Origin: a virus
Length of the DNA stretch: 64,000 nt
IMG/VR virus record: IMGVR_UViG_3300009093_000036
Span: 131,356 to 195,355 of that record
Reading direction: 5' to 3' (one strand)
This document shows positions 8,537-43,377 of the stretch, in pieces. Below the pieces are notes generated by a model. The model worked only from the letters and a program-made list of their open reading frames with translations. It did not search any database and was not told the DNA's origin. The position numbers and the translations under genes are program-made. Every line of letters begins with the position of its first letter. Position 1 is the first letter of the stretch.

Positions 8537-10705
8537 CTACATGCCCGCCGGCGACGGCGGACGCATACCCGGCTGGACGCCAGCGTACCGAAGGGGAGTG
8601 GGTGTGGCGGTCGCCAGATGCTGGACGGCATCCACCCCTTTCTTTGCCCCCACGAGACCAGCACCGACAGCACCGACGGCACCAAGACCCAGCGCGAGAC
8701 GGCCGTAGCCGCTGTGCTTGACCTGGTAGTCAGGATTCGCGAGAGCTCGGCCGAGCTCGGCGGCGGCCTTCAGGCTGCCCTGGTTGCCGATCATGTCACT
8801 CTGCCCTGCGACGATCGGCTCCTGAACCTTCGGCGCCGTCACACGTGCGATCGGCTTCGCGAGGGCGTGCGTGATGCCGGGGGCGACCAGACCCAGACCA
8901 CCGATCTCGACGGCCGGATGATGCAGGGCGTGAGCGAGACCTTCGGCGACGGTGTGGCCCTCAGCAGCAAGAGCACCCATCCGCCCACCACGCAGCATCA
9001 GACGCTTCAGTCCGCCGGCGGCAGCATCGGCGAGGTACGGTGACGCGAGCGTCGCGATGCCGACGTCGTCAATGCGATCGGCGATGCGTCCAGTGCGGGG
9101 GTCCTCCGAGGCCGTCTTGCCCGGCATCGGACCGACGCCGCCGTACTGGTGCGGCACCGCCATGTACCCCATCAAGCCCGTGCCGGCAGCCGCACCGACG
9201 AGACCGGCACGGTTCAGCCCCTGGTTCATCACGTTGTGCTGCTGTTCGAGACGGCCTGCTGCCTGCCGGAGCGCCTCTGCCTGCCCACCACGCGATGCCG
9301 CCACCGATTGAGCGAGCTCGGGCTTCATGGTCGCTGCCGGCGTCGAGGAGCCACCCCAGGCCGTCGGGGACATGACCTGCTTCTGCTGGGTGTTGAGGGC
9401 GATGCCTCCCGCCCCGCCTGCCCCGCCCGCGGCCCCGGGCTTGGCGGCGAGGGTGCCACGACCCAGCGCCGGCGGAGCTCCGGCGTGCATCGTCCCAGCG
9501 AGAGCGGGATCCGCGATCGTCTTGCCGGCGATCTGGTGAGCCTCCCGAGCCGCGATCTCCGCCTGACCCGCCTGAGCTCGCAGCGTGTTGAGCTGATGAG
9601 CCCCCTGCGTCTTGAGCGCCGAGATGCCAGCGCCGCCGGCGGCACCAAGCCCAGCCCCAACGAGAGCTCCGCGAAGAGCTCCCTGTTGCCGCTGGCCTGG
9701 ATCGGCGTGCATCAGACCGCCGAGACCGCCGGCGACGGCGCCGATGCCTGCACCCACCCCAGCATGACCGAGGTGACTGATCGCTGTTGGCGAGACCGCG
9801 AGCGCGATCTTCTGGCCATGGTTGTCCTTGTCGAGCACCTTCATCTTGAACTCCTCGAAGGGCATCTCCTTCATCGAACCGAAGAAGCGGGGGTCGTTGT
9901 ACTGCTTGAGGTAGGCAGCCTTCGCCTCCTCTGCGGAGTCGAACCCGAGCATCACCTTCTGCTCGTCGAACTTCGTCCAGGCGACACCGTCCTTCTTGAT
10001 CTCACCCTCGGGCTTCTTCATCTGGTCGACCAAGAAGACCTTGTCCGACTCCTCGTTGGGGCCGAGGTAGACATCGACGTGGTCGCCATCGGTGCCCTTC
10101 GTCATACGGATGTAGCCGTAGTCGAAGTGCATGAAGGTGGAGCCCTTCTCCTTGCCGTGCGGGTCGTACCAGGAGCGCTTGCTGCCCTTGCGGTTCTCGA
10201 TCGCGATGTCGAGGCCCTTGAACATCCGCTCGCCGTGGAGCTTGAAGTTCGAGAGCTTCGCCCCATCAGCGAAGCGGATGTCGTCCGTCGCTGACTTCTT
10301 CTCGGCGCGGTCCCGCTCCTGCTTCTCCTTGAGCTTCTTGGGGTTGTCCATGAAGTACTGGATCATGTCCCCGCACGACTTCTTCTCGCTCTCACCTTCG
10401 ACCTTCTTCAGGCGGATGTAGTAGTCGGGCCGCTCGCGCAGATGATCGATCGCGATCTGCTTGGCGACGGCGGGATGATCGGTGTGCTCCATCTCCACCT
10501 TCTCGCCGGCGTGGAGCTGAACCTTCGGTACCCCAGAGCCACTGTCGTGGGCGTGAGCGAGCAGGCCGCTCTTCTTGACGTGCTCGGGCAACGCCTTGAT
10601 GTCCTTCGTCTCGTGAGCCCAGGCGATCGCAGTTCCCTTGGGGAGCTTCCCCTCCGCTTCCATCGCGAAGAACTTGCGCTGCTGTGCCTTGCTCTTGAAG
10701 GGCAT
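8537..10705 (-). CDS. multidomain putative virion protein: MPFKSKAQ N-terminal motif + DUF5661-like + InPase (inorganic pyrophosphatase-like) + Gly/Ala-rich hydrophobic segments
   Basis: GEKVEMEHT...AIDHLRERPDYYIRL; IAIENRKGSKR...DYGYIRMTKGTDGDHVDVYLG...DQ...DEQKVMLGFDSAEEAKAAYL; KxA/KxS motifs at domain borders. Confidence 0.75.
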   Translation of the reverse strand: MPFKSKAQQRKFFAMEAEGKLPKGTAIAWAHETKDIKALPEHVKKSGLLAHAHDSGSGVPKVQLHAGEKVEMEHTDHPAVAKQIAIDHLRERPDYYIRLKKVEGESEKKSCGDMIQYFMDNPKKLKEKQERDRAEKKSATDDIRFADGAKLSNFKLHGERMFKGLDIAIENRKGSKRSWYDPHGKEKGSTFMHFDYGYIRMTKGTDGDHVDVYLGPNEESDKVFLVDQMKKPEGEIKKDGVAWTKFDEQKVMLGFDSAEEAKAAYLKQYNDPRFFGSMKEMPFEEFKMKVLDKDNHGQKIALAVSPTAISHLGHAGVGAGIGAVAGGLGGLMHADPGQRQQGALRGALVGAGLGAAGGAGISALKTQGAHQLNTLRAQAGQAEIAAREAHQIAGKTIADPALAGTMHAGAPPALGRGTLAAKPGAAGGAGGAGGIALNTQQKQVMSPTAWGGSSTPAATMKPELAQSVAASRGGQAEALRQAAGRLEQQHNVMNQGLNRAGLVGAAAGTGLMGYMAVPHQYGGVGPMPGKTASEDPRTGRIADRIDDVGIATLASPYLADAAAGGLKRLMLRGGRMGALAAEGHTVAEGLAHALHHPAVEIGGLGLVAPGITHALAKPIARVTAPKVQEPIVAGQSDMIGNQGSLKAAAELGRALANPDYQVKHSGYGRLALGLGAVGAVGAGLVGAKKGVDAVQHLATATPTPLRYAGVQPGMRPPSPAGM

Positions 10706-14847: not shown

Positions 14848-17800
14848 TCAGACGATCAGCGTGATTTTGATCTCGTTGCAAGGATAGAAAACGCCCACGT
14901 CGATGTCGAGGAGCAGCGAGTCCGGCTGATCCGGGTTCTGCACGAGGCGCGAGACGTGGAAGCTCGCGAGGACCTTCTGGACGGTCAGGAAGCTGCCGAG
15001 CCCGTCGAGCGTCGTGCTGATCGAGCTCTGGAGGTTCTGCGAGATGTTGAACCGGCCGATGTAGTTCCGCAGACCGCCGCGGAGGAACTTCGCCGTGAAG
15101 TCGAGCGCCGTGAGGATCGAGAACTCGCGCTCTTCGATCGTGTCGATGGCGGACGTGAGCTGGTGCCGCGTCTGGATGGACTGGCCTGCGGCTTCCTGGA
15201 ACATGTTCCAGAGGCCACCGCCGTCCATGATGCGGTACTGGATCTCACCGTAGCGATCGCTCGCACCGATGAGGCCCGTGAAGCCCTTGATGCCGACGTT
15301 CGTGAGCGGATCGGACGGGTTCTTCGACGCCGTCTTGCCGGCGAGCGCGGCGCAGACGTAGAAGCCCTCGATCTCCTGCTCTAGCCCATCGACCGTCGCC
15401 TTCGCCTTGTCGGGCGTGACGAAGATCATGCGGCGGTTCTTGTAGCCCTGCGGGATCGCGGCGTACGCGATCGCTTCCTCGGTGAGGTCCGCGAGCACGG
15501 TGCCGCGGATGAAGACCGAGAAGGGACGATCGACGATCGGGTTGGCGAACGCCGGCGAGCTGCCAGCGAAATAGAACCCGTCGGCGTTGTCCTCGCTGGT
15601 GCCGGCCGCGAGAGCGCCCGTGCTGACCGTGACGATCGAACCCGCCACCCCGGTGATGAGGTAGTTGTTCGTGTCGTCTTCGAGCTTGAGCACGATGCGA
15701 TCGTCGATGGTGTACGGCGGGGCCGGGTGACCAGCCGCAGCGAGGAGAGCCGGCAGGTTCGCGAGACCCGTGTCGAACGTCGACACGCCGCCCGTGCTGT
15801 TGCCGAGCGAGCCCGAGCCGATGAGGTTGTTCGCCGTGCGCTCCGGACGGGGCGGGTTGTTGAAGACGACGCGTTCGAGACCGACCTCGGGGTCGCTCAT
15901 CGCCGTGACGTGGGCATCCGCGAGGTCCGAGACCGTCGCGTCGTGCGTGAGCTGCGCGATCGCGTACACGTCCTTCGACTCGATGAACGTGTAGGCCTCC
16001 GCCCACGCCCCGAGCGTGCCGAAGGGCTCCGTCACCGTCGCCTCGCCGATGCCGAGACCGAACGTCTCCAGGCCCGAGGCGTTGAGCATCGCGAAGTACA
16101 TGCCGAGGCCCAGGGGGTTCTCGGGGTTGATGGGCGACAGCTTCGACTCCAGCGTGGTGAGGTCACCGATGCGGAGCAGGTTGCTGTTCGTGCCGGCGGC
16201 GGACACGTCGCGACGAAGCGCCGTGTAGCCGAGGTACAAGCCCAGGTCGACCGCGGCCGTGGGGGTGCCGTCAGGAGCACGGAAGATCTCGTGCTTCACG
16301 ACGACTTCGCCAGAGGTCGCGTCGACCTGGAGATCGGCACTCGGACGAGTCGTCGTCTGCGGACCCGTGAGACCGAGCGCGCGGATGTAGAAGTTGACCC
16401 ACGTGGCGGTCAACTGGTACTCCGTGTCGAGACGAAGCCGCGTCACGACGCCCGCCGGAGCGACCTCCGTGATGAGGCCGAGACGGAGACCGTTGCCGTA
16501 GACCTCGTCGCCCACCATCGGAGCGTACGGGTTGCCGACGTAGCGGTTCGCCGTGAGGCCGAGCGTGGTGAGTGCCGTCGAGAGCGAGTTGATGCGGATC
16601 ACGCTCTCCTCGCCGCCCTCGGTCGTGGGCGAGCGGAGGACGAGCTTGTTCGCCCCGTTCAGCGACGCGACCGCAGCGCCTGCGGGCACCTGCCACTTCG
16701 TGTTGATGGCAGCCACTAGCGCCGCAGCGTTCGCGATCGTCGGACCGATGATGAGCGTCTGCTCCGCCTCGCCGTCGATGCTCATGATGAGCGACTGACC
16801 GGGCGTCGCGAACGGGCCGCCGGCACCGTACGTGATGGTCGTGAGGTCCACGGTGGCCTGGACGCGAGCACGGCTGCGACGGCCTGCCGCGTAGTCGCCG
16901 ACGACCAGGCCGAGGTTGCCGGACGTCGCGGTGCCGCCCGTGCGCTCGAACGACGAGCCCGGGCCGGTCGTGCCGGAGGTGAGGACGAGGTGGTTGCTCG
17001 CCCCGAGCGACGCGACGGTCGTACCGAAGGCCGCGTTGATCTGCGAGATGATGTCCGCCGCCGAGGCTGCCGCCGAGAAGTTGACGGTGACCGGGCCGGC
17101 GCCGTCCTTCGAGAAGATGGCGCTCGTGCTGTTCAGCGCGGAGAACGTCGTCGAGAGGTCGGCGGTACCCGTGAGGACCGCGGCACCATCCGTGAAGTTC
17201 TGGCCGGCGAACGTGAGGTACGGCGAGAGGTTGTCGCCATCACCATCGTTGAAGACGCTGACCGCCGCGGTCGCACCACGCAGGAACGTGGTCGTGCGGC
17301 TGACCTCGACGAAGTTGCCGCCACCGATCGCCGCGAACACGCGCACCGTCGAGAAGTCGAGCGTGAGCTCGTCGAGGTTGCTGCGCGGATCCGGGTAGTT
17401 CTCCAGGCCGACGTCGACCTTGAAGTTGTTGTTGTAGCCGCCACGGCCCGTCTCCGTGTAGCCACCACCACGCAAGTTCAGCACGGTGAGGCCGGTGCCG
17501 CCCATGATCGAGAGCGTCGCGAACGGACCCGTGGCCACCGAGTGGAGAACGATGCGCTGCTGCGCACCGCTCGTCTCGATCGCGACGAGCAATCCGACGA
17601 TGTCGAGCGAGTCGATGTACGCCTTCACCTCTTCGACCGTCGGGTTCGCCGGCGAAGCCGGGAACGTGATGGTCTGGGTGGGGCCGTTGTTCACGCTGAG
17701 CTGGAGGGTGAGGCCCCCGAGCGTCGCGTACTGGAACGGCGTCGAGACGTACGGGAACTCGATCCGTGCCGGCAGCGCGAGCAGCGCCTGGCTGTTCAGC

Positions 17801-17949
17801 ACGCCGGTGTCCAGGACAGCCTGAACGACCTCCTTCGCGACACCCATCACGCAGGCGGGCATCGTGGGAACGAAGATCGTGGGGGTGACCTGACGGAACT
17901 CGGTGAAAACCTTGACGCCCGGCCGGGGAAGCATGTTCGGAGTGGTCAT
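14848..17949 (-). CDS. contractile tail sheath protein with repeated insertion domains
   Basis: Sheath-like N-terminus (RPGVKVFTEF) and C-terminus (RHQLTS...RNYIGRFNI...DIDVGVFYPCNEIKITL); 1033 aa. Confidence 0.85.
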   Translation of the reverse strand: MTTPNMLPRPGVKVFTEFRQVTPTIFVPTMPACVMGVAKEVVQAVLDTGVLNSQALLALPARIEFPYVSTPFQYATLGGLTLQLSVNNGPTQTITFPASPANPTVEEVKAYIDSLDIVGLLVAIETSGAQQRIVLHSVATGPFATLSIMGGTGLTVLNLRGGGYTETGRGGYNNNFKVDVGLENYPDPRSNLDELTLDFSTVRVFAAIGGGNFVEVSRTTTFLRGATAAVSVFNDGDGDNLSPYLTFAGQNFTDGAAVLTGTADLSTTFSALNSTSAIFSKDGAGPVTVNFSAAASAADIISQINAAFGTTVASLGASNHLVLTSGTTGPGSSFERTGGTATSGNLGLVVGDYAAGRRSRARVQATVDLTTITYGAGGPFATPGQSLIMSIDGEAEQTLIIGPTIANAAALVAAINTKWQVPAGAAVASLNGANKLVLRSPTTEGGEESVIRINSLSTALTTLGLTANRYVGNPYAPMVGDEVYGNGLRLGLITEVAPAGVVTRLRLDTEYQLTATWVNFYIRALGLTGPQTTTRPSADLQVDATSGEVVVKHEIFRAPDGTPTAAVDLGLYLGYTALRRDVSAAGTNSNLLRIGDLTTLESKLSPINPENPLGLGMYFAMLNASGLETFGLGIGEATVTEPFGTLGAWAEAYTFIESKDVYAIAQLTHDATVSDLADAHVTAMSDPEVGLERVVFNNPPRPERTANNLIGSGSLGNSTGGVSTFDTGLANLPALLAAAGHPAPPYTIDDRIVLKLEDDTNNYLITGVAGSIVTVSTGALAAGTSEDNADGFYFAGSSPAFANPIVDRPFSVFIRGTVLADLTEEAIAYAAIPQGYKNRRMIFVTPDKAKATVDGLEQEIEGFYVCAALAGKTASKNPSDPLTNVGIKGFTGLIGASDRYGEIQYRIMDGGGLWNMFQEAAGQSIQTRHQLTSAIDTIEEREFSILTALDFTAKFLRGGLRNYIGRFNISQNLQSSISTTLDGLGSFLTVQKVLASFHVSRLVQNPDQPDSLLLDIDVGVFYPCNEIKITLIV

Positions 17950-19646: not shown

Positions 19647-20558
19647 TCAGCTCTCGTTCGGGTCGTAGGGCGTGGTGCCGTAGTACGCGAACACGTTCGG
19701 CGTCTTCTCGTCGACCGTGTTGTTGAAGTTGTGCGGGTTCGTGTACATGCGACCCGGACTTGCTTGGATGTCCTTCAGTGGCGACTGAAGATTGAGTGGC
19801 AACTTGTATTCTACGTCGGTCGGCATGATTGCGCGAAGCGTGAGCTCCTGCTTGATCGGGGCTCGAAGGCGCTCCGATGTCACGACATTCACGACTCGCC
19901 AGCGCTGGTTCTCCAGCTCGGTGAGGACGTCCCCTACCTTCACCACGGGGTAGAAGGTGAGACGACCCGTCGTCATCTGGTCCTGGTTCTTCTGCAACGA
20001 CTGGAGCTGAACGGCCTTGCCCACCGGGTCGATCTGCGCCCACACCTCGATCGGGTTGAGGTAGCCACGCACGAAGCTGGTGTCGTAGCAAGAGATGCAG
20101 TTCGAGCGCTTCTTCGCCGAGAGCTTGGAGTCCCAGCAGTTCTTGCAGCGCATCCCGAAGGTGCGTCGCGGGAACAGCCAGCACATGCGGCCGATGACCT
20201 GTGTGAAGGCGGTCTGCTCCAGACGACGAATCGCCGAAGCGATGAGGTCAGGTTCCGCTTCCTGGATGACCGGGCCGAAGATCGCGGTCTCGTTGCTCGC
20301 CTTGTGACGAACACGAAGTTGGTACCAGAACTGCCGGAACTTGTACGACGTCGGGACACGACGGTCGACGAAGATGAAGCGGTCCTCGAACTCCTCGGTG
20401 ATCGGATCGAAGGGACCTTCGCCGCTCTCGGAGCGGAACACCTGGAAGGTGTAGTCCAGCACCTCGACGTCGGTGACACTCGTCTCCCACGTCACTTCCT
20501 GGACCGCGATGTCCAGAGACCGCACACGAAGCCGATCGATTTTCAGCGCGACAGGCAT
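19647..20558 (-). CDS. putative head-closure/neck protein (Fn3-like N-terminus, Zn finger)
   Basis: YTFQVFRSES Fn3-like segment; CKNC...CISC; PVVKVGDVL...RWRV stopper-like beta barrel; position. Confidence 0.5.
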   Translation of the reverse strand: MPVALKIDRLRVRSLDIAVQEVTWETSVTDVEVLDYTFQVFRSESGEGPFDPITEEFEDRFIFVDRRVPTSYKFRQFWYQLRVRHKASNETAIFGPVIQEAEPDLIASAIRRLEQTAFTQVIGRMCWLFPRRTFGMRCKNCWDSKLSAKKRSNCISCYDTSFVRGYLNPIEVWAQIDPVGKAVQLQSLQKNQDQMTTGRLTFYPVVKVGDVLTELENQRWRVVNVVTSERLRAPIKQELTLRAIMPTDVEYKLPLNLQSPLKDIQASPGRMYTNPHNFNNTVDEKTPNVFAYYGTTPYDPNES

Positions 20559-21457
20559 CAGCGAGAAGATCCCACGGCAGCGCCCATCTGTCGTGCGTCA
20601 TACCGGGCCTTCTGCACTGCGGACTCCCCGGCCTTTGCCAGGCGCTTGGCTGCCGAGCTCTGGCGAAGCGCTTCGAGGGTCTCCGTGACGCTCTTCGGCG
20701 TCAGCGTGTTCGGCGGGTTGAACGCCGCCGTCTTCTTGGGGAGCAGCCCCGCTTGCTGGGCGAGCTGTTCGAGGAGCTCGGGAACGGTGACTCCGTTCAC
20801 CTTGAGCTTCTTGGTCTTCTTCACCGGATCGGCAGCACCGAACACGTTGGGCGTGCCGTAGCCGACCTCGTTCCGGGGCTGGTTCTTCATCCGCCCCATC
20901 GAGACTTCGACTTCCTTCGGCAAGGACTGCGAGTACTCACGCTCGATCGCAGCAGCCAGCTTGCCGAACGGCATCTGGGAGAGGTGATCGAGGACGCTTG
21001 CACTTCCGATGACCGGAGCTCCGTGCTGGACGGCGCCCTGGATGACCTTCTGTGGGCCGAGCTGCTGAGCAGCATGCTGGAGCACTGACCCTTGAGAGAA
21101 CGCCATCGTGGGCGTCTTCTTGGCGACGACTCCTGCCACCTGCGAGGCCGCAGCTTGGGCCTTCTGAGCGGAGAGCGTCAGCGCATGCTGAGCGGCCTGC
21201 GTCCCTGCCGACGACCCCAAGTTCTTGTAGTAGCCGGCGAGCTCGGCGACTGCGGCACGACGAGCAGGATCGACACCCTGCTGTGCGATGCGAGCAGCCT
21301 GGTTGACGTGCTTGCCGACCTGACCCGCTTCGAGCCCGATGGTGCTCATCAGGTTCGACTTCTTGACCTTGCCGAGGGCAGTCCACGGCGCACGCCGTAC
21401 GTGAGGACGTACGGCCACCGCGGCTGCCTTCGTGATGAGGTCGAGGTCGAACATCAC
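20558..21457 (-). CDS. putative internal head protein (KxA family)
   Basis: KAAA, KLAA, KTAA motifs; Q/A-rich. Confidence 0.6.
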   Translation of the reverse strand: MMFDLDLITKAAAVAVRPHVRRAPWTALGKVKKSNLMSTIGLEAGQVGKHVNQAARIAQQGVDPARRAAVAELAGYYKNLGSSAGTQAAQHALTLSAQKAQAAASQVAGVVAKKTPTMAFSQGSVLQHAAQQLGPQKVIQGAVQHGAPVIGSASVLDHLSQMPFGKLAAAIEREYSQSLPKEVEVSMGRMKNQPRNEVGYGTPNVFGAADPVKKTKKLKVNGVTVPELLEQLAQQAGLLPKKTAAFNPPNTLTPKSVTETLEALRQSSAAKRLAKAGESAVQKARYDARQMGAAVGSSR

Positions 21458-22395
21458 TTCCTCAGCGAGGACTGGATGAGCTCGGCGAGGCTGGCGGTCT
21501 TCCCGTCCTGCACCTGCCGAAGGGCACGACCACCCTCGACTGCGATCGGAGCGCCGTACGCGGCACCGATCATCGAGCCGATGCCACGAGCGAAGCCGGG
21601 GTCGTGCATCTTGAGCACCTTCGCGGCGCCGTGTCCGACGAGAGCACCCATCGCGGCACCGCCGCCGGCACCCGCGGCGCCCATGAGAGCGCCCTGGCCA
21701 CCGTCAGCCAGCGAACCACCGAGACCGCCACCGATCGCGGAGCCGATCATCGACTTGGGGGTGAAGTCCAGCGAGTGACCGAAGCCGGGGGAGCCGAGGA
21801 AGTGACCGGCGGTCGCGCCGATGCTCGCCCTGTCGAAGCGCTTCTTCTGATCCGTCTGCTCCTTGGTCTTCTCCTTGGCCGCGAACTTCGTGATGAGCGA
21901 AGCGAGCTTGCCAGCGGCCGGCTCCTGCACCGGAGCACCGCCCGCAGCGCCGCCACCGATCTCCGCACCGAGCTGACCGCCGGCTGCGGGATCGGGGGTA
22001 CCGATCACGGCCTGCCCCGGAGGAGTCGGCTGACCGACACCCATCACCTTCATCTTGTGAAGCTGGATGGTGAGCCCGAGCTTCTGGAGACGCATCGCCT
22101 CGCGCTCGTCGCACTCCTTCGAGTAGTCGTACATCGGCTGCTGAGCAGACCGAGCCATGCGCTCCTGGAGATGGCGCTGCTCCATCGCGAGCTCCTGCTC
22201 GCAGAGAGCGATCGCCTGCGGAGCGAGGGGCGAGCCATCGAAGGCTTGGAGGAACTTCTCGTCCATGGCGCCCTCGTGGAAGGCACGCTTGAACGCGAAG
22301 CGGTCGTACGCGTTCGGTTCGACCACCTCGATCGGAGTGGCCGAGGCCGTCTTCGCGCCGAAGGTGCTGATCAAGAATGCGTTGAGCTCGTCCAT
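21454..22395 (-). CDS. putative internal head protein with glycine zipper
   Basis: Start MDELNAFL with GGAG SD; KTAS x2, KLAS, KFAA; GxxxG-rich C-terminal half. Confidence 0.65.
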   Translation of the reverse strand: MDELNAFLISTFGAKTASATPIEVVEPNAYDRFAFKRAFHEGAMDEKFLQAFDGSPLAPQAIALCEQELAMEQRHLQERMARSAQQPMYDYSKECDEREAMRLQKLGLTIQLHKMKVMGVGQPTPPGQAVIGTPDPAAGGQLGAEIGGGAAGGAPVQEPAAGKLASLITKFAAKEKTKEQTDQKKRFDRASIGATAGHFLGSPGFGHSLDFTPKSMIGSAIGGGLGGSLADGGQGALMGAAGAGGGAAMGALVGHGAAKVLKMHDPGFARGIGSMIGAAYGAPIAVEGGRALRQVQDGKTASLAELIQSSLRK

Positions 22396-22405
22396 GGTTG
22401 CTCCT

Positions 22406-24934
22406 TCAGTATTGCGACGGATCGTTGGGGGAAGCGGTGAGCGCCTTCGTACCGAGGATGCCGGTACCGAGGCCAGCGACGAACGCCGGCAGGTGCTCGC
22501 GAAGATGCGGGCCGAGAGCCTGAACACCGCGATGTGCAGAGGCGACGCCGTGGTTGACGGCGGCGTTCACCGCAGCTTCGACAGTGTCGCCGGCACGATG
22601 CGAGCTCGTCTTCGCACGACGGATCCCCTCGGCCACGGACTCCGCCATGTCGGACTTGCGCTGAGCGCGATCGTGCATGCCCTTGGCGGCGAGGAGGCCT
22701 CCGCCGGCGAGAGCCGCGGCGCCCGCGTTCGGAGCGTGCTTCGCAAAAGCCTCGGTCGCCGCCTCGCCCATGCCGTGAGCGATGCTGCGTCCGGTCGCAC
22801 GACCCACGGAGTCGACGACTCCCGCGCTCTTGTCGCGGTTCGCCATCGCACCGCCGGCGAGAGCGAGGCCACCAGCCGCCGCACCCGCCGCCGGCAGGTA
22901 CGGACGAGCCTTCTGGATGAGAGCTCCGAGGCCGCTCGCAGCAGGCGCAGCAGCCGCACCGACGGCGCCACGCACACCACGCTTGCCCACGATCGTCGCG
23001 ACGTCGACCGAGGTTTTCACCGTGACGTGCGTGCCGGGCTTGCCGCCCTTGTCGTCGCCCTTGGCCTCACCACCGCCGGAGTCACCCGACGGCTGCTGTT
23101 CCTGGCCTCCTGCGGCCTGCTCCTGACCCCCCGGTGCAGAACCCTGGGAATCCTGCCCCGGGGTTCCTTCTTGACCGGGAGCGACGCCCGTCTGTGCAGC
23201 GAGCTCGGCCTCCGCCTGCTGCTGCGGAGTGGCCGGCATCCCCTGAGCGGCGAGGTCGCTGACCGTGGCTGCGGACTCGGCGACCGGGTCCTGCATCACG
23301 AAGTTGGCGAGCTCCTGACGCATCTGATTGACGCGCATGCCGAGCTGCATCTTCTGGATGGAGTGATCCGCCGCACGGCCTTCCGCTTCCGCGGCCTGCT
23401 GCGTCGCCATCATCGCCTGCTGCGAGTCCATCTGGGACTGCTGCGTGAGCTGCTCGACCTGCTGCTGGGCCTGCATGAGCTGCTGCTGGGCAGCCTGGGC
23501 TTCCGCCTGCGCCTGCTGAGCTGCCTGCGAGGCCTGCATCGCGACGGTCTTGGCGTGCGAAGCCTCGGCCATCGCCTGCGCCGCACCGAGCTGCTGCTCA
23601 CGCTCGATGTACGCCTCGGGGGAGTCGGCGTTCGGCATCACCATATCCGACTTCTTCTCCTGCTCCTTGTGCTTCTTGAAGAAGTCGGTGCCGTTCGACA
23701 GCACGGCACCTCCGACGTAGGCCGCGGACTTCGCCTTCTCGATGAGGTCGACCAGCGACACCGGAGCCTCGACCGGCTTGACCGAGACGTCCTTCGGCGA
23801 CTTCGTGTTGGGCGACGTCTTCTGGACGTCCGGCTTCTCGGAGCGCAGAGCCGCGGGCGACAGAGGCGTCAGCTCCACACGGACCTGGTCCTTGTGGTGG
23901 ATGACGTCCATGTCCTTGTTGAGGTCGGCGATGCGCTTCTGGAGGAAGCCCTTCATCGCCGCCTTCTTCTCGTGCTCGGCGTGGATGCCGGGGAACTTCT
24001 TCTCCACGGCGGCACGCACCTTCGCCTTCTCGTCGGAGGTGCCGTGCATGCCCACCATCCCGAGAGCAGCGAGAGCGTGATCCTTGTCATGGATGGGGTA
24101 CTTGCGTTCCGCGGGGAACACGAAGTTGCTGTCCTTGATCTCGGACCGGGCGCCGGCGGTGAGGTCGGCGGCCTTCTTGTCCTTCTCCTTGCCGGAGTAG
24201 GAGGGGTCCATGCCGGCACGACGGAGCTGCTCGTACGTCGCGACCGCAGCGGCCTTCGGCTGCTCGGGCGTCGTCTCGACCTGCACCTTCGTCGACGCCG
24301 GCTGCGCCTGAGCGGGCTGCTCGGTCTCGGCCGGAGCTTCGGCCGTGGGCATGGCAGGCAGAGCCGTGGGCTCGACGAGCTGCCAGAGCTCGTCCTGGTG
24401 CTCCTCCTCGCGCTGGAGGAACTGCTCGATCGTGAACTTCATGGGCGTGTCGCCGCAGATGCTGTGGAGCTGCTTCCACAGCGTGAGCCCCATCTGCTCG
24501 ACGACGATCATCGCCTGCACGATCTCGTTCGGATCGTGAAGCGGCTCCGGCGGCGGGTACGGCGGGATCGAGACACCACCGGGCGACAGCACGCTCATGC
24601 GGCGCAGCAGGTAGTCGGCATGCTCCAGCTCGTGGCTGGCGTGCTCCATGAACTCCTCCGCGATCCCCTCGTGCGAGAGACCACGCATCATGTTCGCGTA
24701 GTAGACGTAGTACGTCTGCGTCTTGAACTCGTTCGAGACCATCTGCGCGATGAGCTCGACGGCCTGCGGAAGCGGAACGAGGAACGGGCCCTCGACCTCG
24801 CCGCCAGGTGCCGGCATCTCGCCCTCTGCCATCTTCCGGATCCCGGCGATGAACAGCGAGCCGTCGACGAGCCCGATGGGGTTCGTCGGCTTGAAGGACA
24901 TGATCAGGGTCTTGTCGAGGTCCATGATGCTCAC
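22406..24934 (-). CDS. ferritin-like domain + DUF6582-like + Q-rich coiled coil + glycine-zipper polyprotein (putative virion protein)
   Basis: SNE...AEEFMEHASHELEHADYLLRR...EQ...EEEHQDEL diiron four-helix pattern; FVFPAERKYPIHDKDHA...EKAKVRAAVEKKFP. Confidence 0.75.
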   Translation of the reverse strand: MSIMDLDKTLIMSFKPTNPIGLVDGSLFIAGIRKMAEGEMPAPGGEVEGPFLVPLPQAVELIAQMVSNEFKTQTYYVYYANMMRGLSHEGIAEEFMEHASHELEHADYLLRRMSVLSPGGVSIPPYPPPEPLHDPNEIVQAMIVVEQMGLTLWKQLHSICGDTPMKFTIEQFLQREEEHQDELWQLVEPTALPAMPTAEAPAETEQPAQAQPASTKVQVETTPEQPKAAAVATYEQLRRAGMDPSYSGKEKDKKAADLTAGARSEIKDSNFVFPAERKYPIHDKDHALAALGMVGMHGTSDEKAKVRAAVEKKFPGIHAEHEKKAAMKGFLQKRIADLNKDMDVIHHKDQVRVELTPLSPAALRSEKPDVQKTSPNTKSPKDVSVKPVEAPVSLVDLIEKAKSAAYVGGAVLSNGTDFFKKHKEQEKKSDMVMPNADSPEAYIEREQQLGAAQAMAEASHAKTVAMQASQAAQQAQAEAQAAQQQLMQAQQQVEQLTQQSQMDSQQAMMATQQAAEAEGRAADHSIQKMQLGMRVNQMRQELANFVMQDPVAESAATVSDLAAQGMPATPQQQAEAELAAQTGVAPGQEGTPGQDSQGSAPGGQEQAAGGQEQQPSGDSGGGEAKGDDKGGKPGTHVTVKTSVDVATIVGKRGVRGAVGAAAAPAASGLGALIQKARPYLPAAGAAAGGLALAGGAMANRDKSAGVVDSVGRATGRSIAHGMGEAATEAFAKHAPNAGAAALAGGGLLAAKGMHDRAQRKSDMAESVAEGIRRAKTSSHRAGDTVEAAVNAAVNHGVASAHRGVQALGPHLREHLPAFVAGLGTGILGTKALTASPNDPSQY

Positions 24935-27134: not shown

Positions 27135-28247
27135 TCAGAAGGAGACGACGCCCGGGAAGAACGTGCGATCCGCGGCGCGGTTGTTCGGCGCCCCGAGATC
27201 CTCCTCCACCTTCGGCGAGACCGAGGAGAGGATCGAGTCCGTGTTCAGCGACGTCGCGTCACCGGAGTAGAGCTCCAGCTTGCGGACCGACGCCACGTTG
27301 ACGATCGACATGCCGACGTCCTTCCACGCGACGAACTTGATCAGGTTGATCACCTTGTCGATGTAGAACTTGACGTTGTTCAGGATGTAGAAGCGACCCA
27401 GGAACTCCGGCGACGTGTACGCGTACACGTTGCCCGGACGGAGGATGTCCGTCTTGATGGTCCGGATCAGCTTCTTGCCGAGCAGGGTGTTGAACTGCCA
27501 GCCCTGAACGGTGGTCTCGCTCTGCACCTTCGAGCCCTGGTCCTCGATCGTCCACTGGAGGACGTCGTCGAGATCCTTGCTCGTGATGAGGATGAGCTCG
27601 CACTCCAAGCGGTTGCCGTCGAGTAGCTTCATCAGGTTGACGATGTCCGGGCGCTGGATCGGACGAACGATCGCGTCGTTCGTCGAAGCCGCACGCGCGA
27701 GCTCGCCCTTGATGACCGAGAACTCCACCGGCGGCGTGCCGCTCTGGAGACCCGTCGCGTTGAGCGCCGTCGTCGAGCCGTTGGCCTCGGTCTGGAGCGC
27801 CTGCACCGCGGCCTCGGAGTAGATCAGGAACTGACGGTCCTGGATCTCGCCGATGTCGCGGATCGAGTTCTGCTCGACCACCTTCCCGAGCGGGTACGGG
27901 TAAGCCAGGAACTCCTGCTCCGGCTTCTGGTACATCTCGCTCATGATGGTGATGAACGGCACCTCGACGCGCTCGCCGCGGAGCAGCCGAGCCGAGGGCT
28001 CGCCACGGAAGGTGACCACCATGGCGCGCGAACGCGGCTCCAGGTGCTCGATCTTCACGAGCGAGTCGTGGTTGACCGAGATCTGGCAGTCGCTGCGCGT
28101 GACGGTCTGGGGCGGGAGGACCCGCTCCAGGAACGACGCCTCGCGCAGGCGATCTCGGATGTAGCCCCCGACCTCCGCCGCGAGCTTCGTCTTCGCGTCG
28201 GGGTTCGAGAGGTGCTGAATGGTCAGCTCCTTTGCATCGTGCAGCAT
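27135..28247 (-). CDS. major capsid protein (HK97 fold inferred)
   Basis: 370 aa, strong SD (AAAAGGAGATAGGAG), follows protease/scaffold/decoration genes; KLAA near the N-terminus. Confidence 0.75.
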   Translation of the reverse strand: MLHDAKELTIQHLSNPDAKTKLAAEVGGYIRDRLREASFLERVLPPQTVTRSDCQISVNHDSLVKIEHLEPRSRAMVVTFRGEPSARLLRGERVEVPFITIMSEMYQKPEQEFLAYPYPLGKVVEQNSIRDIGEIQDRQFLIYSEAAVQALQTEANGSTTALNATGLQSGTPPVEFSVIKGELARAASTNDAIVRPIQRPDIVNLMKLLDGNRLECELILITSKDLDDVLQWTIEDQGSKVQSETTVQGWQFNTLLGKKLIRTIKTDILRPGNVYAYTSPEFLGRFYILNNVKFYIDKVINLIKFVAWKDVGMSIVNVASVRKLELYSGDATSLNTDSILSSVSPKVEEDLGAPNNRAADRTFFPGVVSF

Positions 28248-31300: not shown

Positions 31301-33106
31301 TTACAGAGCAACCTGCACTGCGTTCCGGAGACCGGAGATGAAGTTGGTGTTCCGATTCATCGTGGAGCAGACCTCGTCACCGAGAGCGCTGAGCTTGCGG
31401 TAATCGGGGCTTGTCATCACGTACTCCACAGCAACACCAAGTTCCTCTTCGACCTCTGCCACCTTTTCGAGGTGAGCCGAAATCCAATGTACCACGGTGG
31501 ATGAAGACAGGAGAAGACCCGCCAGGGAAGATGTCTTCGTCAACTCCCTGAAGTCGGGCGGGCACGCCTCGTGGTACTTGGGCATCAGATGCTCCGCCTG
31601 CTTCAGCAGAGAAGCCCGGTACCCGTTGTAGAGAGCCGCGACATCATGAACGAAGACGGCGTCGAGTAGTTGTGGAACAGGGGCCGAAGCCGTCTTCGAC
31701 ATCATGCCCAGCCGGTAGTGCAGATGCGGGGCAAACGAAGAGCGATGCTCCACGTACGGCATGAGCCTCTCGGCCAGCTTCAACGAGAAGAGCTGGGGGT
31801 CCACGGCATACCCAGTCTCGTACTCCGGCAACGACGTTTTGAACGTCATGTTGTGGTCGGCGGCCATCGACGCGACCTTCGCGTGGAACGGGTGCTCGGT
31901 GCCGACGACGCCATGGAACTCGTTCGGCTTGAGCATGATGCCCAGACCCGCGAGTGTGGACAGCAGAGTGCGAGCACCGACCTCCTTCGAGAAGTCAGCC
32001 AGCTCTCCGAACGGGATGTCCATCTCTCCGTTGGCACAGAGCTCGACCTTGCGAGCGATGCCACCAGGGATCTCCTTCTCCATCGCCGTCTTCTTGATGT
32101 TCCTGATGTGCTCTCGGGTAAGAAGGGTTCCAGGGCCTGCCTTCTCACTGGCCGTCTTCGACATGTCTGAGGCCCCCTTCAAGAGCTCACCGATGCTCTG
32201 CGGACGCTGACGAGCTCCGGCACGACTGCCGCTTGCACTCATGAAGAACATGACTCGTGCAGTACGGTCCGCACCGATCCACACGAAGCTGATGTCGAAG
32301 AAGCGCGGGTAGTCGTTGTAGACGAAGACCTTCTGGCCGTCGTCGAGCACCTGACCGCGCTGCTTGACCATGTGGTCGCAGTAGTCGGCCTTCGTGATCG
32401 CAAGACCACGAATGGGCTTCACGGTCCGGTGGTACACGAGGATGGCGACGCCGGGGCTGGCGTGACGCTTCGGGTCGTACGCCTTCTTCGCCTTCTTGAC
32501 GGTCTCCCAGTCCGTGCAGATCGAGCAGAAGTCGAAAGGCACCTTGCAGCCCATCGAGACATCGACTCGATCACCCCGGCCGATCCTATCAAGAATCGCA
32601 GAGTGACCCCGTTGCATGGCGAGGTCGACATCGACCCGCATCACGAGCTCGATGCGCTTCTGCGCCTCGTTGCGTGCGACGAAAACGACGTCACCGAAGC
32701 CCAGCGACGTGGGGTCCGTGTTCTTGTGGTGGGCGTAGACGGTCGCGCCGTAGTAGCTGGGGTAGCCGAAGGGCCAGCTCTTCGCGATGCGAGCCTGAAC
32801 GACGGGATCCGTCTCCCAGTTCTCGTACTCGCCATGGAGGTGACACGTCTCGGGGGCGTGCAGCAGACCGTTGAAGTCGAGGTGCGGGTTGTACCCGTAG
32901 TAGTCGACGTTCGAGTTCGGCCCGTAGTACTCCGAGTACCCCATCGCGTTCACGTGCGTGAACATGTACTTGGGGTCCGGGCGAAGACGCGAGATGAAGT
33001 CCTCGACGAGCGGCAGAGCGCCGGCCACTTTCGTCATGTGGCCGGCCTCGATGAGATGAACCGGCGGCTCGCCTTCAGCCGACGAGAACGCGCGCTTCAG
33101 CATCAT
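31301..33106 (-). CDS. prohead (maturation) protease with long C-terminal extension
   Basis: YAHHKN, DVSMGCKVPFDFCSIC and FFDISFVWIGADRTA match HK97/assemblin-fold prohead proteases; position upstream of scaffold/MCP. Confidence 0.7.
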   Translation of the reverse strand: MMLKRAFSSAEGEPPVHLIEAGHMTKVAGALPLVEDFISRLRPDPKYMFTHVNAMGYSEYYGPNSNVDYYGYNPHLDFNGLLHAPETCHLHGEYENWETDPVVQARIAKSWPFGYPSYYGATVYAHHKNTDPTSLGFGDVVFVARNEAQKRIELVMRVDVDLAMQRGHSAILDRIGRGDRVDVSMGCKVPFDFCSICTDWETVKKAKKAYDPKRHASPGVAILVYHRTVKPIRGLAITKADYCDHMVKQRGQVLDDGQKVFVYNDYPRFFDISFVWIGADRTARVMFFMSASGSRAGARQRPQSIGELLKGASDMSKTASEKAGPGTLLTREHIRNIKKTAMEKEIPGGIARKVELCANGEMDIPFGELADFSKEVGARTLLSTLAGLGIMLKPNEFHGVVGTEHPFHAKVASMAADHNMTFKTSLPEYETGYAVDPQLFSLKLAERLMPYVEHRSSFAPHLHYRLGMMSKTASAPVPQLLDAVFVHDVAALYNGYRASLLKQAEHLMPKYHEACPPDFRELTKTSSLAGLLLSSSTVVHWISAHLEKVAEVEEELGVAVEYVMTSPDYRKLSALGDEVCSTMNRNTNFISGLRNAVQVAL

Positions 33107-33727: not shown

Positions 33728-34062
33728 CAGTAGTACCCTCCTCCACCGCTACCGAAGTCGCCAGGGCGAGAACCGAAGTCCCTCGGGATGAGGGCGGACC
33801 CGACCGCGTTGCCGGCAGCACCCATCTGCTGACCGAGCCACGCCTTGCCGCGACGGGTGGGAGCGTACTGGTTGGCGGCGTGGTTGGCGACCAGAACGGG
33901 AGCTGCATAGCCCACCGTCTTGCCGATCGCCTCCGAGCCGAGGTTCTTGCCGATGGCTCCCCCCACGCTTCCAGCGGCCTGGAACACCTTGCCGGTAGCC
34001 TTGCCTACGGTCTTCGCAGCCTCGGCAAGGCCGGCCAGCTTCAGAAGCGTGATGGGGTTCAT
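33727..34062 (-). CDS. small Gly/Ala-rich putative head protein
   Basis: KLAG at the N-terminus; translationally coupled. Confidence 0.55.
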   Translation of the reverse strand: MNPITLLKLAGLAEAAKTVGKATGKVFQAAGSVGGAIGKNLGSEAIGKTVGYAAPVLVANHAANQYAPTRRGKAWLGQQMGAAGNAVGSALIPRDFGSRPGDFGSGGGGYY

Positions 34063-39734: not shown

Positions 39735-40059
39735 GTCGCGATCTTCATCTTCCCCGAAGCCAACCCTGACAGCCATCTCTGGAACCATCCTGAAGGCGCT
39801 CGACGCCCTCGTCGTTCAATCTGCCACCACTACCGAAGGCGTGTGGCACCGCGTGTCGCGTTCACACTCTCCTGAGCTCAAGGATGCGCTCAGGAACTAC
39901 GTGAAGGCAAACAACAAGTACTACCACACGCGCTTCGAGGTCCACTTCCCGAAGCCCTTCGTGCTCCGGATCAGTGAGAGACCGGAGCCCCCTCGATCTG
40001 CTCCAGGAACCGCTGGACGAGCAGCCGAAGGTCCGGCGCGATCACGCCCTGCACGATGA
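39733..40059 (+). CDS. possible small antisense-oriented gene
   Basis: Codons 39790-39970 are strongly coding-like (AAG/AAC/TAC/TTC) and the same-register minus frame is closed. Confidence 0.35.
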   Translation: MSRSSSSPKPTLTAISGTILKALDALVVQSATTTEGVWHRVSRSHSPELKDALRNYVKANNKYYHTRFEVHFPKPFVLRISERPEPPRSAPGTAGRAAEGPARSRPAR

Positions 40060-43332: not shown

Positions 43333-43377
43333 GGTGTGCATCCTAACATCGAAAACGCGTTCAGGAGGAGAGCTGCT

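What the first reader, a model, noticed from the sequence alone, without database searches (positions are those of the whole stretch)
24365..24770. Ferritin/bacterioferritin-like diiron domain at the N-terminus of a head-operon polyprotein
Seen: E(SNE)...EEFMEHASHELEH...EQ...EEEH pattern forming a four-helix ferroxidase-like centre, fused to a DUF6582-like domain, a Q-rich coiled coil and glycine zippers within the neck/head operon. Known: this E/ExxH spacing defines ferritin-like proteins. Inference: an iron-binding or oxidative-protection cargo packaged in the capsid (DNA protection, or a metal supply at infection).
Basis: partly seen in the sequence, partly recalled or inferred. Interest (0 to 1): 0.75.

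Follow-up and report, generated by a model that had tools for sequence, protein, structure and literature searches.

The report
Ferritin domain on phage head-module protein
An uncultured 195-kb contractile-tailed phage encodes, between its capsid and tail-sheath genes, an 842-residue modular protein that starts with a genuine iron-oxidising ferritin-type domain, and sequence signs suggest but do not prove that this mini-ferritin is loaded into the phage head.

Summary
Window 24365-24770 is residues 56-190 of an intact 842-aa ORF (22406-24934, minus strand). It passes Pfam Ferritin (E 4e-12). It folds confidently as a four-helix bundle (pLDDT 87.6). It matches dodecameric mini-bacterioferritin and Dps-like proteins at Z about 18-19.

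The six di-iron ligands (E69, E102, H105, E146, E176, H179) and Tyr76 are each conserved in 72-99% of 186 cluster representatives. It is not a true bacterioferritin, because the haem-ligand Met is Leu and there is no fifth helix.

The gene is a syntenic core gene of the head-to-tail module in 25 related viral contigs. No relative was found in GenBank phages.

Packaging in the capsid is inferred, not shown. The evidence is:
- a conserved roughly 35-residue leader ending in K-x-A;
- conserved K-x-A sites at module borders;
- about 3-fold enrichment of K-x-[AS]-[AS] in the structural block after correcting for composition;
- a neighbouring InPase protein with the same build.

The protease itself could not be identified. 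The best reading is a head-loaded, protease-processed DPSL-type ferroxidase/peroxidase that protects phage DNA.

Earlier notes of this scan describe the same kind of protein on three other genomes, with one follow-up reaching a similar verdict.

The parts
22406..24934 (-). Whole ORF, 842 aa (P0001). The GTG start overlaps the TGA stop of the upstream 159-aa gene (GTGA), which suggests translational coupling. The build is leader, ferritin domain, linkers, DUF6582-like module, coiled coil and Gly-zipper tail.
   Evidence: An identical protein starting 3 residues later (P0002) and 59 homologues of 480-1341 aa were found. 207 cluster representatives score E<1e-10, and nearly all carry the domain at about residues 40-190.
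24824..24934 (-). N-terminal leader, residues 1-37, ending in K34-M-A-E. It is a candidate capsid-targeting propeptide with a cleavage site.
   Evidence: F28 is conserved in 147/186, K34 in 164/186 and A36 in 151/186. The model shows two low-confidence helices at 3-13 and 22-37. 76 of 95 family members have K-x-[AS]-[ASDE] in the leader.
24374..24772 (-). Ferritin-like four-helix di-iron domain, residues 55-187. The helices are 55-82, 86-116, 135-159 and 164-185, with a long Pro-rich crossover loop at 117-134. The ligands are E69, E102, H105, E146, E176 and H179, with Tyr76 nearby.
   Evidence: Pfam PF00210 E 4e-12. AF2 pLDDT is 93-99 across the helices. Foldseek and VIA give Z 18.8 to mBfr 9qq5, 18.2 to PaDpsL 8w1e and 18.4 to Bfr 4cvs. 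PDB sequence hits are DPSL 8w1d at 5e-7 and 2clb at 1.5e-5.
24245..24256 (-). K227-A-A-A, the first K-x-A-A site after the ferritin domain. It is a candidate site that would release the roughly 190-residue ferritin piece.
   Evidence: 80 of 95 family members have a strict K-x-[AS]-[AS] within 120 residues after the domain. The family consensus keeps K-x-A at two post-domain linker positions where all else is variable.
23978..24178 (-). DUF6582-like small phage module, residues 253-319, preceded by K253-K-A-A and containing the KYPIHDKDH motif.
   Evidence: Pfam PF20223 E 0.0014, below the cut-off. phrog_16160 E 1.1e-10. Atlas structural and feature matches are to Uroviricota-only clusters that carry DUF6582.
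23255..23623 (-). Conserved Gln/Ala-rich helical (coiled-coil-like) region, residues about 438-560.
   Evidence: It is the most conserved part outside the ferritin domain in the 59-sequence alignment consensus. It has no Pfam or PDB sequence match.
22409..23017 (-). C-terminal tail, residues about 640-842, starting at the conserved V-K-T-S. It has Gly/Ala-rich weakly hydrophobic segments (654-697, 814-835) and a C-terminal H-L-P...G-x-G...G-T-K segment.
   Evidence: Hydropathy scan. An 'HP + Gly/Ala-rich' C-terminal segment recurs in distant family members. There is no paralogue elsewhere in the genome.
27135..28247 (-). Major capsid protein (370 aa), with K-L-A-A at residues 21-24.
   Evidence: phrog_2522 major head protein E 1.2e-8. 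27% identity to the Salmonella phage Arash MCP. The N-terminal K-[IL]-A-A at residues 20-23 is conserved in relatives L003, L016 and L027.
21454..22398 (-). Next gene downstream, about 314 aa from Met44 of the listed ORF. It has K-T-A-S twice, K-L-A-S and K-F-A-A, a Gly-zipper C-terminal half, and an N-terminus that resembles the ferritin protein's (MD-x-L-x-x-F-L-I-S-T-F).
   Evidence: Sequence. The start is supported by relatives. It is syntenic in several loci.
8537..10705 (-). 722-aa protein with DUF5661 and an InPase domain, followed by a Gly-zipper-rich tail. It has the same 'enzyme head + Gly-rich tail' build as the ferritin protein.
   Evidence: Pfam PF18823 E 1.2e-36 and PF18905 E 7.5e-9. 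Ferritin homologue P0139 itself carries DUF5661. InPase polyvalent proteins are predicted to be virion-packaged (PMC5512222).
31301..33106 (-). 601-aa conserved protein upstream of the scaffold-like genes. The N-terminal 290 residues have invariant H83, H126, H127 and D182-x-S184-M-G. The C-terminal half carries K-T-A-S three times. It is a candidate prohead protease, unproven.
   Evidence: Invariant columns. Atlas feature neighbours include Peptidase_S77/S80 clusters at 0.90-0.91, which is a lead only.
14848..17949 (-). Tail sheath (1033 aa), which marks the tail end of the module.
   Evidence: phrog_2839 and phrog_279 tail sheath, E about 1e-7.

Best explanation
The domain is a functional Bfr/DPSL-type intrasubunit di-iron ferritin-like domain. 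It forms the N-terminal module of a conserved, late-expressed, multi-module head-associated protein of a clade of uncultured 120-200-kb myophages.

The proposed mechanism has three steps.
1. The precursor enters the procapsid through its roughly 35-residue N-terminal leader, together with the two downstream Gly-zipper proteins and the InPase protein.
2. The prohead protease cuts at K-x-[A/S]-[A/S]-type linkers. This releases a roughly 20-kDa mini-ferritin (about residues 38-226), the DUF6582 module, the coiled coil and the Gly-rich tail.
3. The mini-ferritin, probably as dimers or Dps-like 12-mers, oxidises Fe2+ with O2 or H2O2 at its di-iron centre. That suppresses Fenton damage to the tightly packed genome in the virion and, if it is ejected with the DNA, at entry into the host.

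What is shown: the fold, the ligand set, the conservation, the synteny and the motif statistics. What is inferred: encapsidation, cleavage, oligomer state, catalysis and biological role.
For: Domain identity:
- Pfam E 4e-12.
- AF2 pLDDT 87.6.
- Z 18-19 and rmsd about 2 A to mBfr, PaDpsL and Bfr.
- HMMER alignment of all ligand segments to DpsL.

Purifying selection on the metal site: E102 96%, E146 98%, H179 96% and Y76 99% of 186 representatives.

Core structural gene: the same position between the MCP and the sheath in 25 loci, with MCP identity down to 45%, and in an NCBI MAG.

Leader and processing signs:
- K34 88% and A36 81% conserved.
- K-x-A persists in the consensus of otherwise variable linkers.
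- In the structural block the motif is observed 59 times against 17.9 expected; in the rest of the genome it is 46 against 53.8.
- An N-terminal motif occurs in 9/27 block proteins against 10/181 elsewhere, Fisher p 1e-4.
- The same roughly 3-fold excess is seen in seven relatives, and the ferritin orthologues together show 29 against 12.9.

Analogy: the InPase protein has the same build and shares the DUF5661 module with a ferritin homologue. InPase polyvalent proteins are predicted to be packaged (PMC5512222). A ferritin-like protein was detected in phage G particles (PMC12484599).
Against: There is no direct evidence of encapsidation or cleavage.

In this protein alone the motif count is not significant (p 0.09). 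Orthologue counts are not independent of each other.

The protease is unidentified. The g601 model has pLDDT 46, there is no Pfam hit, and hhalign against T4 gp21 gives probability 0.4%.

The gene lies after the MCP, next to neck and tail genes, a position also compatible with an external neck or collar protein.

Lys/Ala-rich helical proteins may carry K-x-A-A for compositional or structural reasons beyond the simple composition correction used.

No cultured relative exists against which to check.
Confidence: 0.5

Rival explanations
1. It is an external virion protein. The coiled coil forms a neck or collar fibre, or a decoration, that displays the ferritin domain on the particle surface. There it binds environmental iron (a 'Ferrojan horse'-type use of iron for receptor access) or shields the particle from oxidants.
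For: The gene sits between the head-completion-like and tail genes. It has a long conserved Gln/Ala helical region. In T4 the neck whisker gene lies among the neck genes; this point is my own knowledge.
Against: The protein shares the leader and linker K-x-A signature with scaffold-like and capsid proteins but not with the sheath or other tail proteins. The Gly-zipper tail and the modular enzyme-head build resemble packaged or injected proteins. The ferritin domain is N-terminal behind a conserved leader rather than at a distal fibre tip.
Confidence: 0.15
2. It is a non-virion late protein. The fusion acts in the infected cytoplasm, or at the membrane via the Gly-rich tail, to buffer iron and peroxide during particle assembly. 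That would make it effectively an auxiliary metabolic function that merely lies in the late operon.
For: Stand-alone Dps and ferritin genes in phages are usually read this way (PMC8008677). The weakly hydrophobic Gly/Ala segments could associate with membranes.
Against: Auxiliary genes are typically patchy, whereas this one is present at the same position in all 25 related loci. It is always fused behind a conserved leader. It sits inside a tightly coupled structural gene string with a GTGA overlap.
Confidence: 0.15
3. The domain has a structural or assembly role. It serves mainly as an oligomerisation hub (dimer or 12-mer) that nucleates or organises an internal core or scaffold, with metal binding kept for stability rather than catalysis. 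Alternatively, after ejection it acts on DNA, since the nearest solved relative, PaDpsL, nicks DNA in vitro.
For: All the closest solved relatives are obligate 12-mers. PaDpsL has nickase and endonuclease activity (PMC11150526). The protein contains a scaffold-like coiled coil.
Against: The full catalytic ligand set and the redox-active Tyr position are conserved more strongly than most surface positions. Some distant members change H105 to D or E, which are still ligands, rather than losing the site.
Confidence: 0.15

Closest known systems
Dps-like proteins (DPSL): P. aeruginosa PA4880/DpsL (8w1d, 8w1e), S. solfataricus DPSL (2clb), P. furiosus DPSL (7stw), B. fragilis thioferritin (2vzb)
   Same: These are the best sequence hits in the PDB (5e-7 and 1.5e-5). 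Z is 17-18. They share the Bfr-type di-iron site buried within one four-helix subunit, and they have no fifth helix. PaDpsL oxidises Fe2+ with O2 or H2O2 (PMC11150526).
   Different: Identity is only 20-24%. No conserved Cys pair of the thioferritin type appears among the invariant columns. Here the domain is never seen free-standing among the best 150 hits; it is fused behind a leader and in front of 300-1150 further residues. The 12-mer state is untested.
Mini-bacterioferritin of Ca. Methanoperedens (9qq4, 9qq5; PMC13168243)
   Same: It is the best structural match: Z 18.8, rmsd 2.0 A over 132 of 136 residues, TM 0.87 by target. It is a roughly 139-residue four-helix subunit with an intrasubunit di-iron ferroxidase centre.
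   Different: mBfr binds Fe-coproporphyrin at the dimer interface. The phage domain has Leu at the position equivalent to the Bfr haem Met, with Met in only 10 of 186 representatives. Sequence E is only 0.003.
Bacterioferritin (E. coli Bfr 1bcf, P. aeruginosa BfrB)
   Same: It shares the same six ligands with nearly the same spacing, and a Tyr seven residues after the first Glu (Tyr25 in Bfr, Tyr76 here). Z is about 17.5.
   Different: There is no haem-ligand Met and no E helix for a 24-mer four-fold axis. The helix ends at residue 185 and a Pro/Ala-rich linker follows.
Phage-encoded Dps/ferritin-like proteins (Lactobacillus phages, 'Gratiaviridae', phage G gp346)
   Same: These are ferritin-superfamily proteins encoded by tailed phages. 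Phage G's was detected in particles by proteomics (PMC12484599). BFVD lists weak structural matches to them.
   Different: Those are mostly short stand-alone Dps-type proteins. No sequence similarity to them was found by tblastn in 50,697 GenBank phage records, even at E<=1. BFVD also lists ferritin-like folds inside proteins named 'prohead protease'; I could not examine these.
T4 internal proteins/Alt and phage 'polyvalent' packaged proteins (PMC5512222)
   Same: These are works-like comparisons only: an enzyme module behind a short N-terminal targeting peptide removed by the prohead protease, or multi-module proteins encoded among virion genes. The InPase and DUF5661 modules occur in the same phage and family.
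   Different: There is no sequence relation. The T4 cleavage motif (L/I-x-E, from my own knowledge) differs from K-x-A-A. Ferritin is not among the domains catalogued in that paper (0 occurrences). Packaging is not demonstrated here.
Encapsulin with ferritin-like cargo (Flp, EncFtn, double-ferritin-fold ferroxidases)
   Same: Both would place a ferritin-superfamily enzyme inside an HK97-fold shell, directed by a terminal peptide.
   Different: This is a true phage with a terminase, a sheath and a 195-kb genome. The candidate signal is N-terminal, whereas the encapsulin loading peptide is C-terminal. The C-terminal G-x-G...G-T-K segment, which loosely recalls a loading peptide, occurs in only 17-21 of 186 family members.

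Membership tests
Ferritin-like superfamily (Pfam PF00210 Ferritin) | Score above the curated Pfam gathering threshold | tested here: met
   46.7 bits against a 24.5 cut-off, E 4e-12, residues 60-187. 52.1 bits in the six-frame genome search.
Ferritin-like superfamily (Pfam PF00210 Ferritin) | Up-down-down-up four-helix bundle with a long crossover loop between helices B and C | tested here: met
   The AF2 model has helices 55-82, 86-116, 135-159 and 164-185, a loop at 117-134 and pLDDT 93-99. Z 18.8, rmsd 2.0 A over 132 residues to 9qq5.
Ferritin-like superfamily (Pfam PF00210 Ferritin) | Di-iron ligand set E / ExxH / E / ExxH within one subunit | tested here: met
   E69, E102, H105, E146, E176 and H179 align to the ligand segments of PaDpsL. 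They are conserved in 58-60/61 and in 72-98% of 186. Inter-ligand distances in the model could not be measured.
Ferritin-like superfamily (Pfam PF00210 Ferritin) | Ferroxidase activity / iron binding | not testable with these tools
   This needs recombinant protein.
Bacterioferritin sensu stricto | Haem-ligating Met (Met52 in E. coli Bfr) directly after the second ligand Glu | tested here: not met
   Position 103 is Leu. Across 186 representatives it is L 93, T 25, I 15, A 15 and M 10.
Bacterioferritin sensu stricto | Fifth (E) helix and 24-mer shell | tested here: not met
   No helix follows residue 185. A Pro/Ala-rich linker comes next, with pLDDT falling to 72. The oligomer state itself is untested.
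DPSL / mini-bacterioferritin (12-mer with Bfr-type site) | Dps-size four-helix subunit with an intrasubunit Bfr-type di-iron centre | tested here: met
   The top PDB sequence and fold matches are DPSL and mBfr. The ligand set is as above.
DPSL / mini-bacterioferritin (12-mer with Bfr-type site) | Dodecameric shell | not testable with these tools
DPSL / mini-bacterioferritin (12-mer with Bfr-type site) | Conserved Cys pair next to the di-iron site (thioferritin-type DPSL) | tested here: not met
   No Cys appears among the invariant or nearly invariant columns. The only Cys in the domain, C160, is not conserved.
Canonical Dps | Ferroxidase site at the dimer interface, built from two subunits | tested here: not met
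   The ligand pattern is the intrasubunit Bfr type. Dps chains score only E 0.35-0.39 by sequence.
Prohead-protease-processed internal head protein (T4 IP/Alt-like, works-like class) | N-terminal targeting propeptide ending in the phage's protease motif | tested here: inconclusive
   The leader with K34-x-A36 is conserved, and the motif is enriched in the block. However, the motif is unverified as a cleavage site and the protease is unidentified.
Prohead-protease-processed internal head protein (T4 IP/Alt-like, works-like class) | Presence in purified virions | not testable with these tools
   There is no cultured relative.
Encapsulin cargo | Encapsulin shell gene without portal/terminase/tail, and a C-terminal cargo-loading peptide | tested here: not met
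   A terminase, a sheath and a 195-kb virus record are present. The C-terminal Gly-rich motif is not family-wide.

The most novel reading that the evidence does not exclude
This phage clade may be a natural counterpart of the encapsulin-ferritin system: an HK97-type capsid that actively loads a ferritin-like nanocage enzyme, with other enzymes such as InPase, through terminal targeting peptides and a K-x-A-A-specific maturation protease. If so, 'ferritin inside an HK97 shell' exists in bona fide viruses. It could mark the kind of internal-protein loading from which encapsulin cargo loading arose, or to which it reverted.
Probability: 0.15. Interest if true: 0.85.

Novelty: new variant of a known kind. 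Interest (0 to 1): 0.6.

Why it matters
Ferritin-superfamily genes in phages have so far been treated as sporadic stand-alone accessory genes. Here a DPSL/mini-Bfr-type di-iron domain is a fixed, leader-bearing N-terminal module of a core head-module protein. It occurs in at least 200 sequence clusters (50% identity) of uncultured large myophages.

If it is packaged, these viruses would carry their own iron and peroxide detoxifier next to the genome. That is a new kind of virion cargo. It would also be a testable answer to how large phages limit oxidative DNA damage in the particle or at entry. It would give a natural parallel to encapsulin-ferritin compartments, and a candidate natural targeting peptide and protease-site system for loading enzymes into capsids.

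If it is not packaged, it is still an unusual fusion. It would extend the DPSL/mini-Bfr branch of the ferritin family into viruses.

Tried and rejected
- Complex prediction, for the dimer or oligomer of the domain, was not available.
- The 'atlas' fold library was not available.
- tblastn of the whole protein (E 1e-5) and of the domain alone (E<=1) against 50,697 GenBank phage records gave no match.
- The remaining 647 residues gave no PDB sequence match and no NCBIfam match.
- No paralogue of any part exists in the 195-kb genome.
- Attempts to identify the prohead protease centred on g601 (31301-33106):
  - The profile search against PDB found nothing.
  - The AF2 model of the N-terminal 305 residues had pLDDT 46, too poor to search with.
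  - Pfam on all 12 orthologues found nothing.
  - hhalign against T4 gp21 gave probability 0.4%.
  - Only language-model neighbours hinted at Peptidase_S77/S80.
  - I therefore do not call it a protease.
- An encapsulin-like C-terminal loading peptide was considered. The G-x-G...G-[TS]-K segment is present in only 17-21 of 186 family members, so it is not a family feature.
- A true bacterioferritin was rejected, because there is no haem Met and no E helix.
- Canonical Dps was rejected, because the ligands are intrasubunit.
- Literature searches found no paper describing a ferritin domain fused to phage head proteins, nor any paper on DUF6582.
Full report
**Where the finding lies.** The window is the last 64 kb of a 195,355-bp IMG/VR virus record that CheckV rates as complete. 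The coordinates 24365-24770 fall on the minus strand, inside an uninterrupted 842-codon ORF at 22406-24934. They correspond to residues 56-190. The GTG start overlaps the TGA stop of the upstream 159-aa gene (GTGA). A 89%-identical orthologue starts in the same way.

- Pfam PF00210 (Ferritin) matches residues 60-187 at E 4e-12, 46.7 bits against a cut-off of 24.5. Rubrerythrin gives a weaker overlapping hit.
- Against PDB sequences the best matches are Dps-like proteins: 8w1d at 5e-7 and 2clb at 1.5e-5. Mini-bacterioferritin and bacterioferritins follow at 3e-3 to 4e-2. HMMER places the four ligand-bearing segments opposite those of P. aeruginosa DpsL.
- An AlphaFold2 model of residues 1-200, built on 59 family sequences, has mean pLDDT 87.6. 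It shows four long helices (55-82, 86-116, 135-159, 164-185) joined by a Pro-rich crossover loop.
- Foldseek and the VIA re-alignment give Z 18.8 (rmsd 2.0 A over 132 residues) to mini-bacterioferritin 9qq5. They give 18.2 to PaDpsL 8w1e, 18.4 to apo-Bfr 4cvs and 17.2 to Sulfolobus DPSL 2clb.
- The ligand set is E69, E102-x-x-H105, E146 and E176-x-x-H179, with a Tyr seven residues after the first Glu, as in bacterioferritin.

**Conservation of the metal site.**
- In 61 close homologues each ligand is kept in 58-60.
- In 186 representatives of clusters at 50% identity the figures are:
  - E69: 83%
  - E102: 96%
  - H105: 72%, plus 23% D or E
  - E146: 98%
  - E176: 87%
  - H179: 96%
  - Tyr76: 99%
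- The metal site is therefore under purifying selection.
I could not read the model coordinates to measure distances.

**What kind of ferritin it is.**
- It is not a bacterioferritin in the strict sense. The residue after E102, which is the haem-ligating Met in Bfr, is Leu here and Met in only 10 of 186. No fifth helix follows helix D.
- It is not a canonical Dps, whose iron site lies between subunits.
- It best fits the DPSL / mini-Bfr grade: small four-helix subunits with a Bfr-type internal di-iron centre that, where solved, form 12-mers (PMC11150526, PMC13168243).
- It lacks the Cys pair of thioferritin-type DPSL.

**Genomic context.** All genes from about 8.5 to 50.7 kb of the window run on the minus strand. 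In transcription order they are:
- a single-ORF RNA polymerase beta-beta' fusion (44478-50675) and the large terminase (37944-39788);
- a conserved 601-aa protein (31301-33106);
- Lys/Ala/Glu-rich scaffold-like proteins;
- the major capsid protein (27135-28247; phrog_2522; 27% identity to the orphan Salmonella phage Arash);
- three small or medium proteins;
- the ferritin protein;
- two Gly-zipper proteins;
- a Zn-ribbon protein and two further small proteins;
- the 1033-aa tail sheath.

This order is kept in 25 related IMG/VR contigs, with capsid identity down to 45%, and in an NCBI MAG contig.

**Family size and distribution.** An exhaustive HMMER search found 329 cluster representatives at E<=1e-3 and 207 at E<=1e-10. 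Nearly all of the best 150 are 400-1340 aa, with the ferritin domain at about residues 40-190. The domain therefore always sits behind a roughly 40-residue leader and in front of a long variable body. No GenBank phage has a BLAST-detectable relative.

**The rest of the protein.**
- After a Pro/Ala-rich linker comes a small Uroviricota-only module (residues 253-319). It is DUF6582-like, matching phrog_16160 at 1e-10 and Atlas structure matches.
- Next are a variable stretch and then a strongly conserved Gln/Ala helical region (about 438-560).
- A Gly/Gln/Glu-rich low-complexity stretch follows.
- The protein ends in a tail with weakly hydrophobic Gly/Ala segments.
- Long homologues insert further modules. 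One carries DUF5661. In this phage DUF5661 sits on a separate 722-aa protein (8537-10705) together with an InPase domain and a very similar Gly-zipper tail.
- InPase-bearing phage proteins were predicted to be packaged and injected (PMC5512222). That paper does not mention ferritin.

**Is it a processed capsid cargo?** Notes from other first-stage readers of this scan pointed to a K-x-[A/S]-[A/S] motif, and I tested it.
- Genome-wide there are 105 occurrences against 71.7 expected from each protein's own composition.
- The 27 minus-strand proteins of the structural block hold 59 against 17.9 expected. The other 181 proteins hold 46 against 53.8.
- The excess is concentrated in the scaffold-like proteins, the 601-aa and 692-aa proteins, and the ferritin protein and its neighbours. 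The sheath and the small neck-like proteins have almost none.
- A motif within the first 45 residues occurs in 9 of 27 block proteins against 10 of 181 others (Fisher p 1e-4). This includes the capsid protein at residue 21, a position kept in relatives.
- Seven divergent relatives show the same roughly 3-fold excess.
- For the ferritin protein alone the count is 5 against 2.45, which is not significant (p 0.09). Seven orthologues together give 29 against 12.9, but they are not independent.
- Position is more telling than count. K34 and A36 of the leader are conserved in 88% and 81% of 186 representatives. The family consensus keeps K-x-A at two sites after the ferritin domain and two before the coiled coil, where everything around them is variable. 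In homologue P0139 near-identical A-A-M-R-M-A-K-x-A-A linkers precede successive modules.
- The N-termini of the ferritin protein and of the next gene also resemble each other within each phage.

These features are what one expects of a prohead-protease recognition code and an N-terminal targeting peptide, as in T4 internal proteins. They are still only sequence patterns.

**The protease remains unidentified.** I could not confirm the enzyme. The 601-aa protein has invariant His and Asp-x-Ser-Met-Gly residues, and language-model neighbours include Peptidase_S77/S80 clusters. Every direct test failed:
- the PDB profile search;
- the AF2 model, with pLDDT 46;
- Pfam on 12 orthologues;
- hhalign against T4 gp21.

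**Most likely mechanism (confidence about 0.5).** The precursor is made late. It enters the procapsid by its leader and is cut at K-x-A-type linkers. This frees a roughly 20-kDa mini-ferritin that, as a dimer or 12-mer, oxidises Fe2+ with O2 or H2O2 and so limits Fenton damage to the packed genome. It may be ejected with the DNA. The rivals, each at about 0.15, are:
- an external neck or collar protein that displays the domain;
- a cytoplasmic or membrane late protein that is not in the particle;
- a mainly structural or oligomerising role, or a DNA-nicking role.

**Comparison with what is known.** Stand-alone Dps or ferritin-like genes are known in Lactobacillus phages and in 'Gratiaviridae' (PMC8008677), and a ferritin-like protein was found in phage G particles (PMC12484599). 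BFVD contains weak structural matches to such proteins, and to several uncultured-phage proteins named 'prohead protease' that contain a ferritin-like fold. I found no paper describing a ferritin domain fused into a head-module protein. I class the finding as a new variant of a known kind.

**Earlier notes of this scan.** The scan had already noted the same protein type on three other genomes. One follow-up reached much the same verdict as I do here: observation confirmed, first reading partly supported, DPSL closest.

Noticed in passing
window 44478-50675 (-): A single 2065-aa ORF carries both RpoB-type (Rpb2 domains 3 and 6) and RpoC-type (Rpb1 domains 1, 2 and 5) RNA polymerase domains. It lies in the same minus-strand gene string as the terminase and virion genes.
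   Followed up: partly
window 8537-43341 (-) and 60316-61620 (-): K-x-[AS]-[AS], often K-T-A-S, is concentrated in about a dozen head-module proteins. The 692-aa protein at 41263-43341 has 10 against 0.84 expected, and the 268-aa protein at 34059-34865 has 6 against 0.68. The excess is reproduced in seven related phages. It is a candidate maturation-protease code.
   Followed up: partly
window 8537-10705 (-): This 722-aa protein has DUF5661, a polyvalent-type InPase domain (E 1e-36) and a long Gly-zipper-rich tail. It is a probable second packaged enzyme.
   Followed up: partly
window 31301-33106 (-): This 601-aa protein is conserved across the clade. It has invariant H83, H126, H127, D182-V-S-M-G and a Cys cluster (C194, C243). 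Its C-terminal half carries K-T-A-S three times. It could be a new prohead protease family, but all tests were negative or inconclusive.
   Followed up: yes
window 35415-37364 (+): A DNA topoisomerase II large subunit gene (phrog_543, E 3e-159) sits on the opposite strand in the middle of the minus-strand virion gene string.
   Followed up: no
window 19647-20558 (-): This 303-aa protein is conserved in all long related loci at 41-94% identity. It has a C-x-x-C ... C-x-x-C zinc-ribbon-like motif and lies between the Gly-zipper proteins and the sheath. It is possibly a neck or adaptor protein.
   Followed up: no
BFVD entries A0A6J7WIS1, A0A6J7WPK9, A0A6J7XDU5 (not in the window): Uncultured-phage proteins of 333-763 aa named 'Prohead protease' give weak Foldseek matches to the ferritin model. 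This hints at independent ferritin/head-protein fusions in other phages.
   Followed up: no
window 22398 and 24934; loci L003, L013, L027: Within each phage, the N-termini of the ferritin protein and of the gene directly downstream resemble each other. In L013 both begin M-S-H; here they begin M-D-L-D-K-T-L-I-M-S-F and M-D-E-L-N-A-F-L-I-S-T-F. This may be a shared targeting helix.
   Followed up: partly
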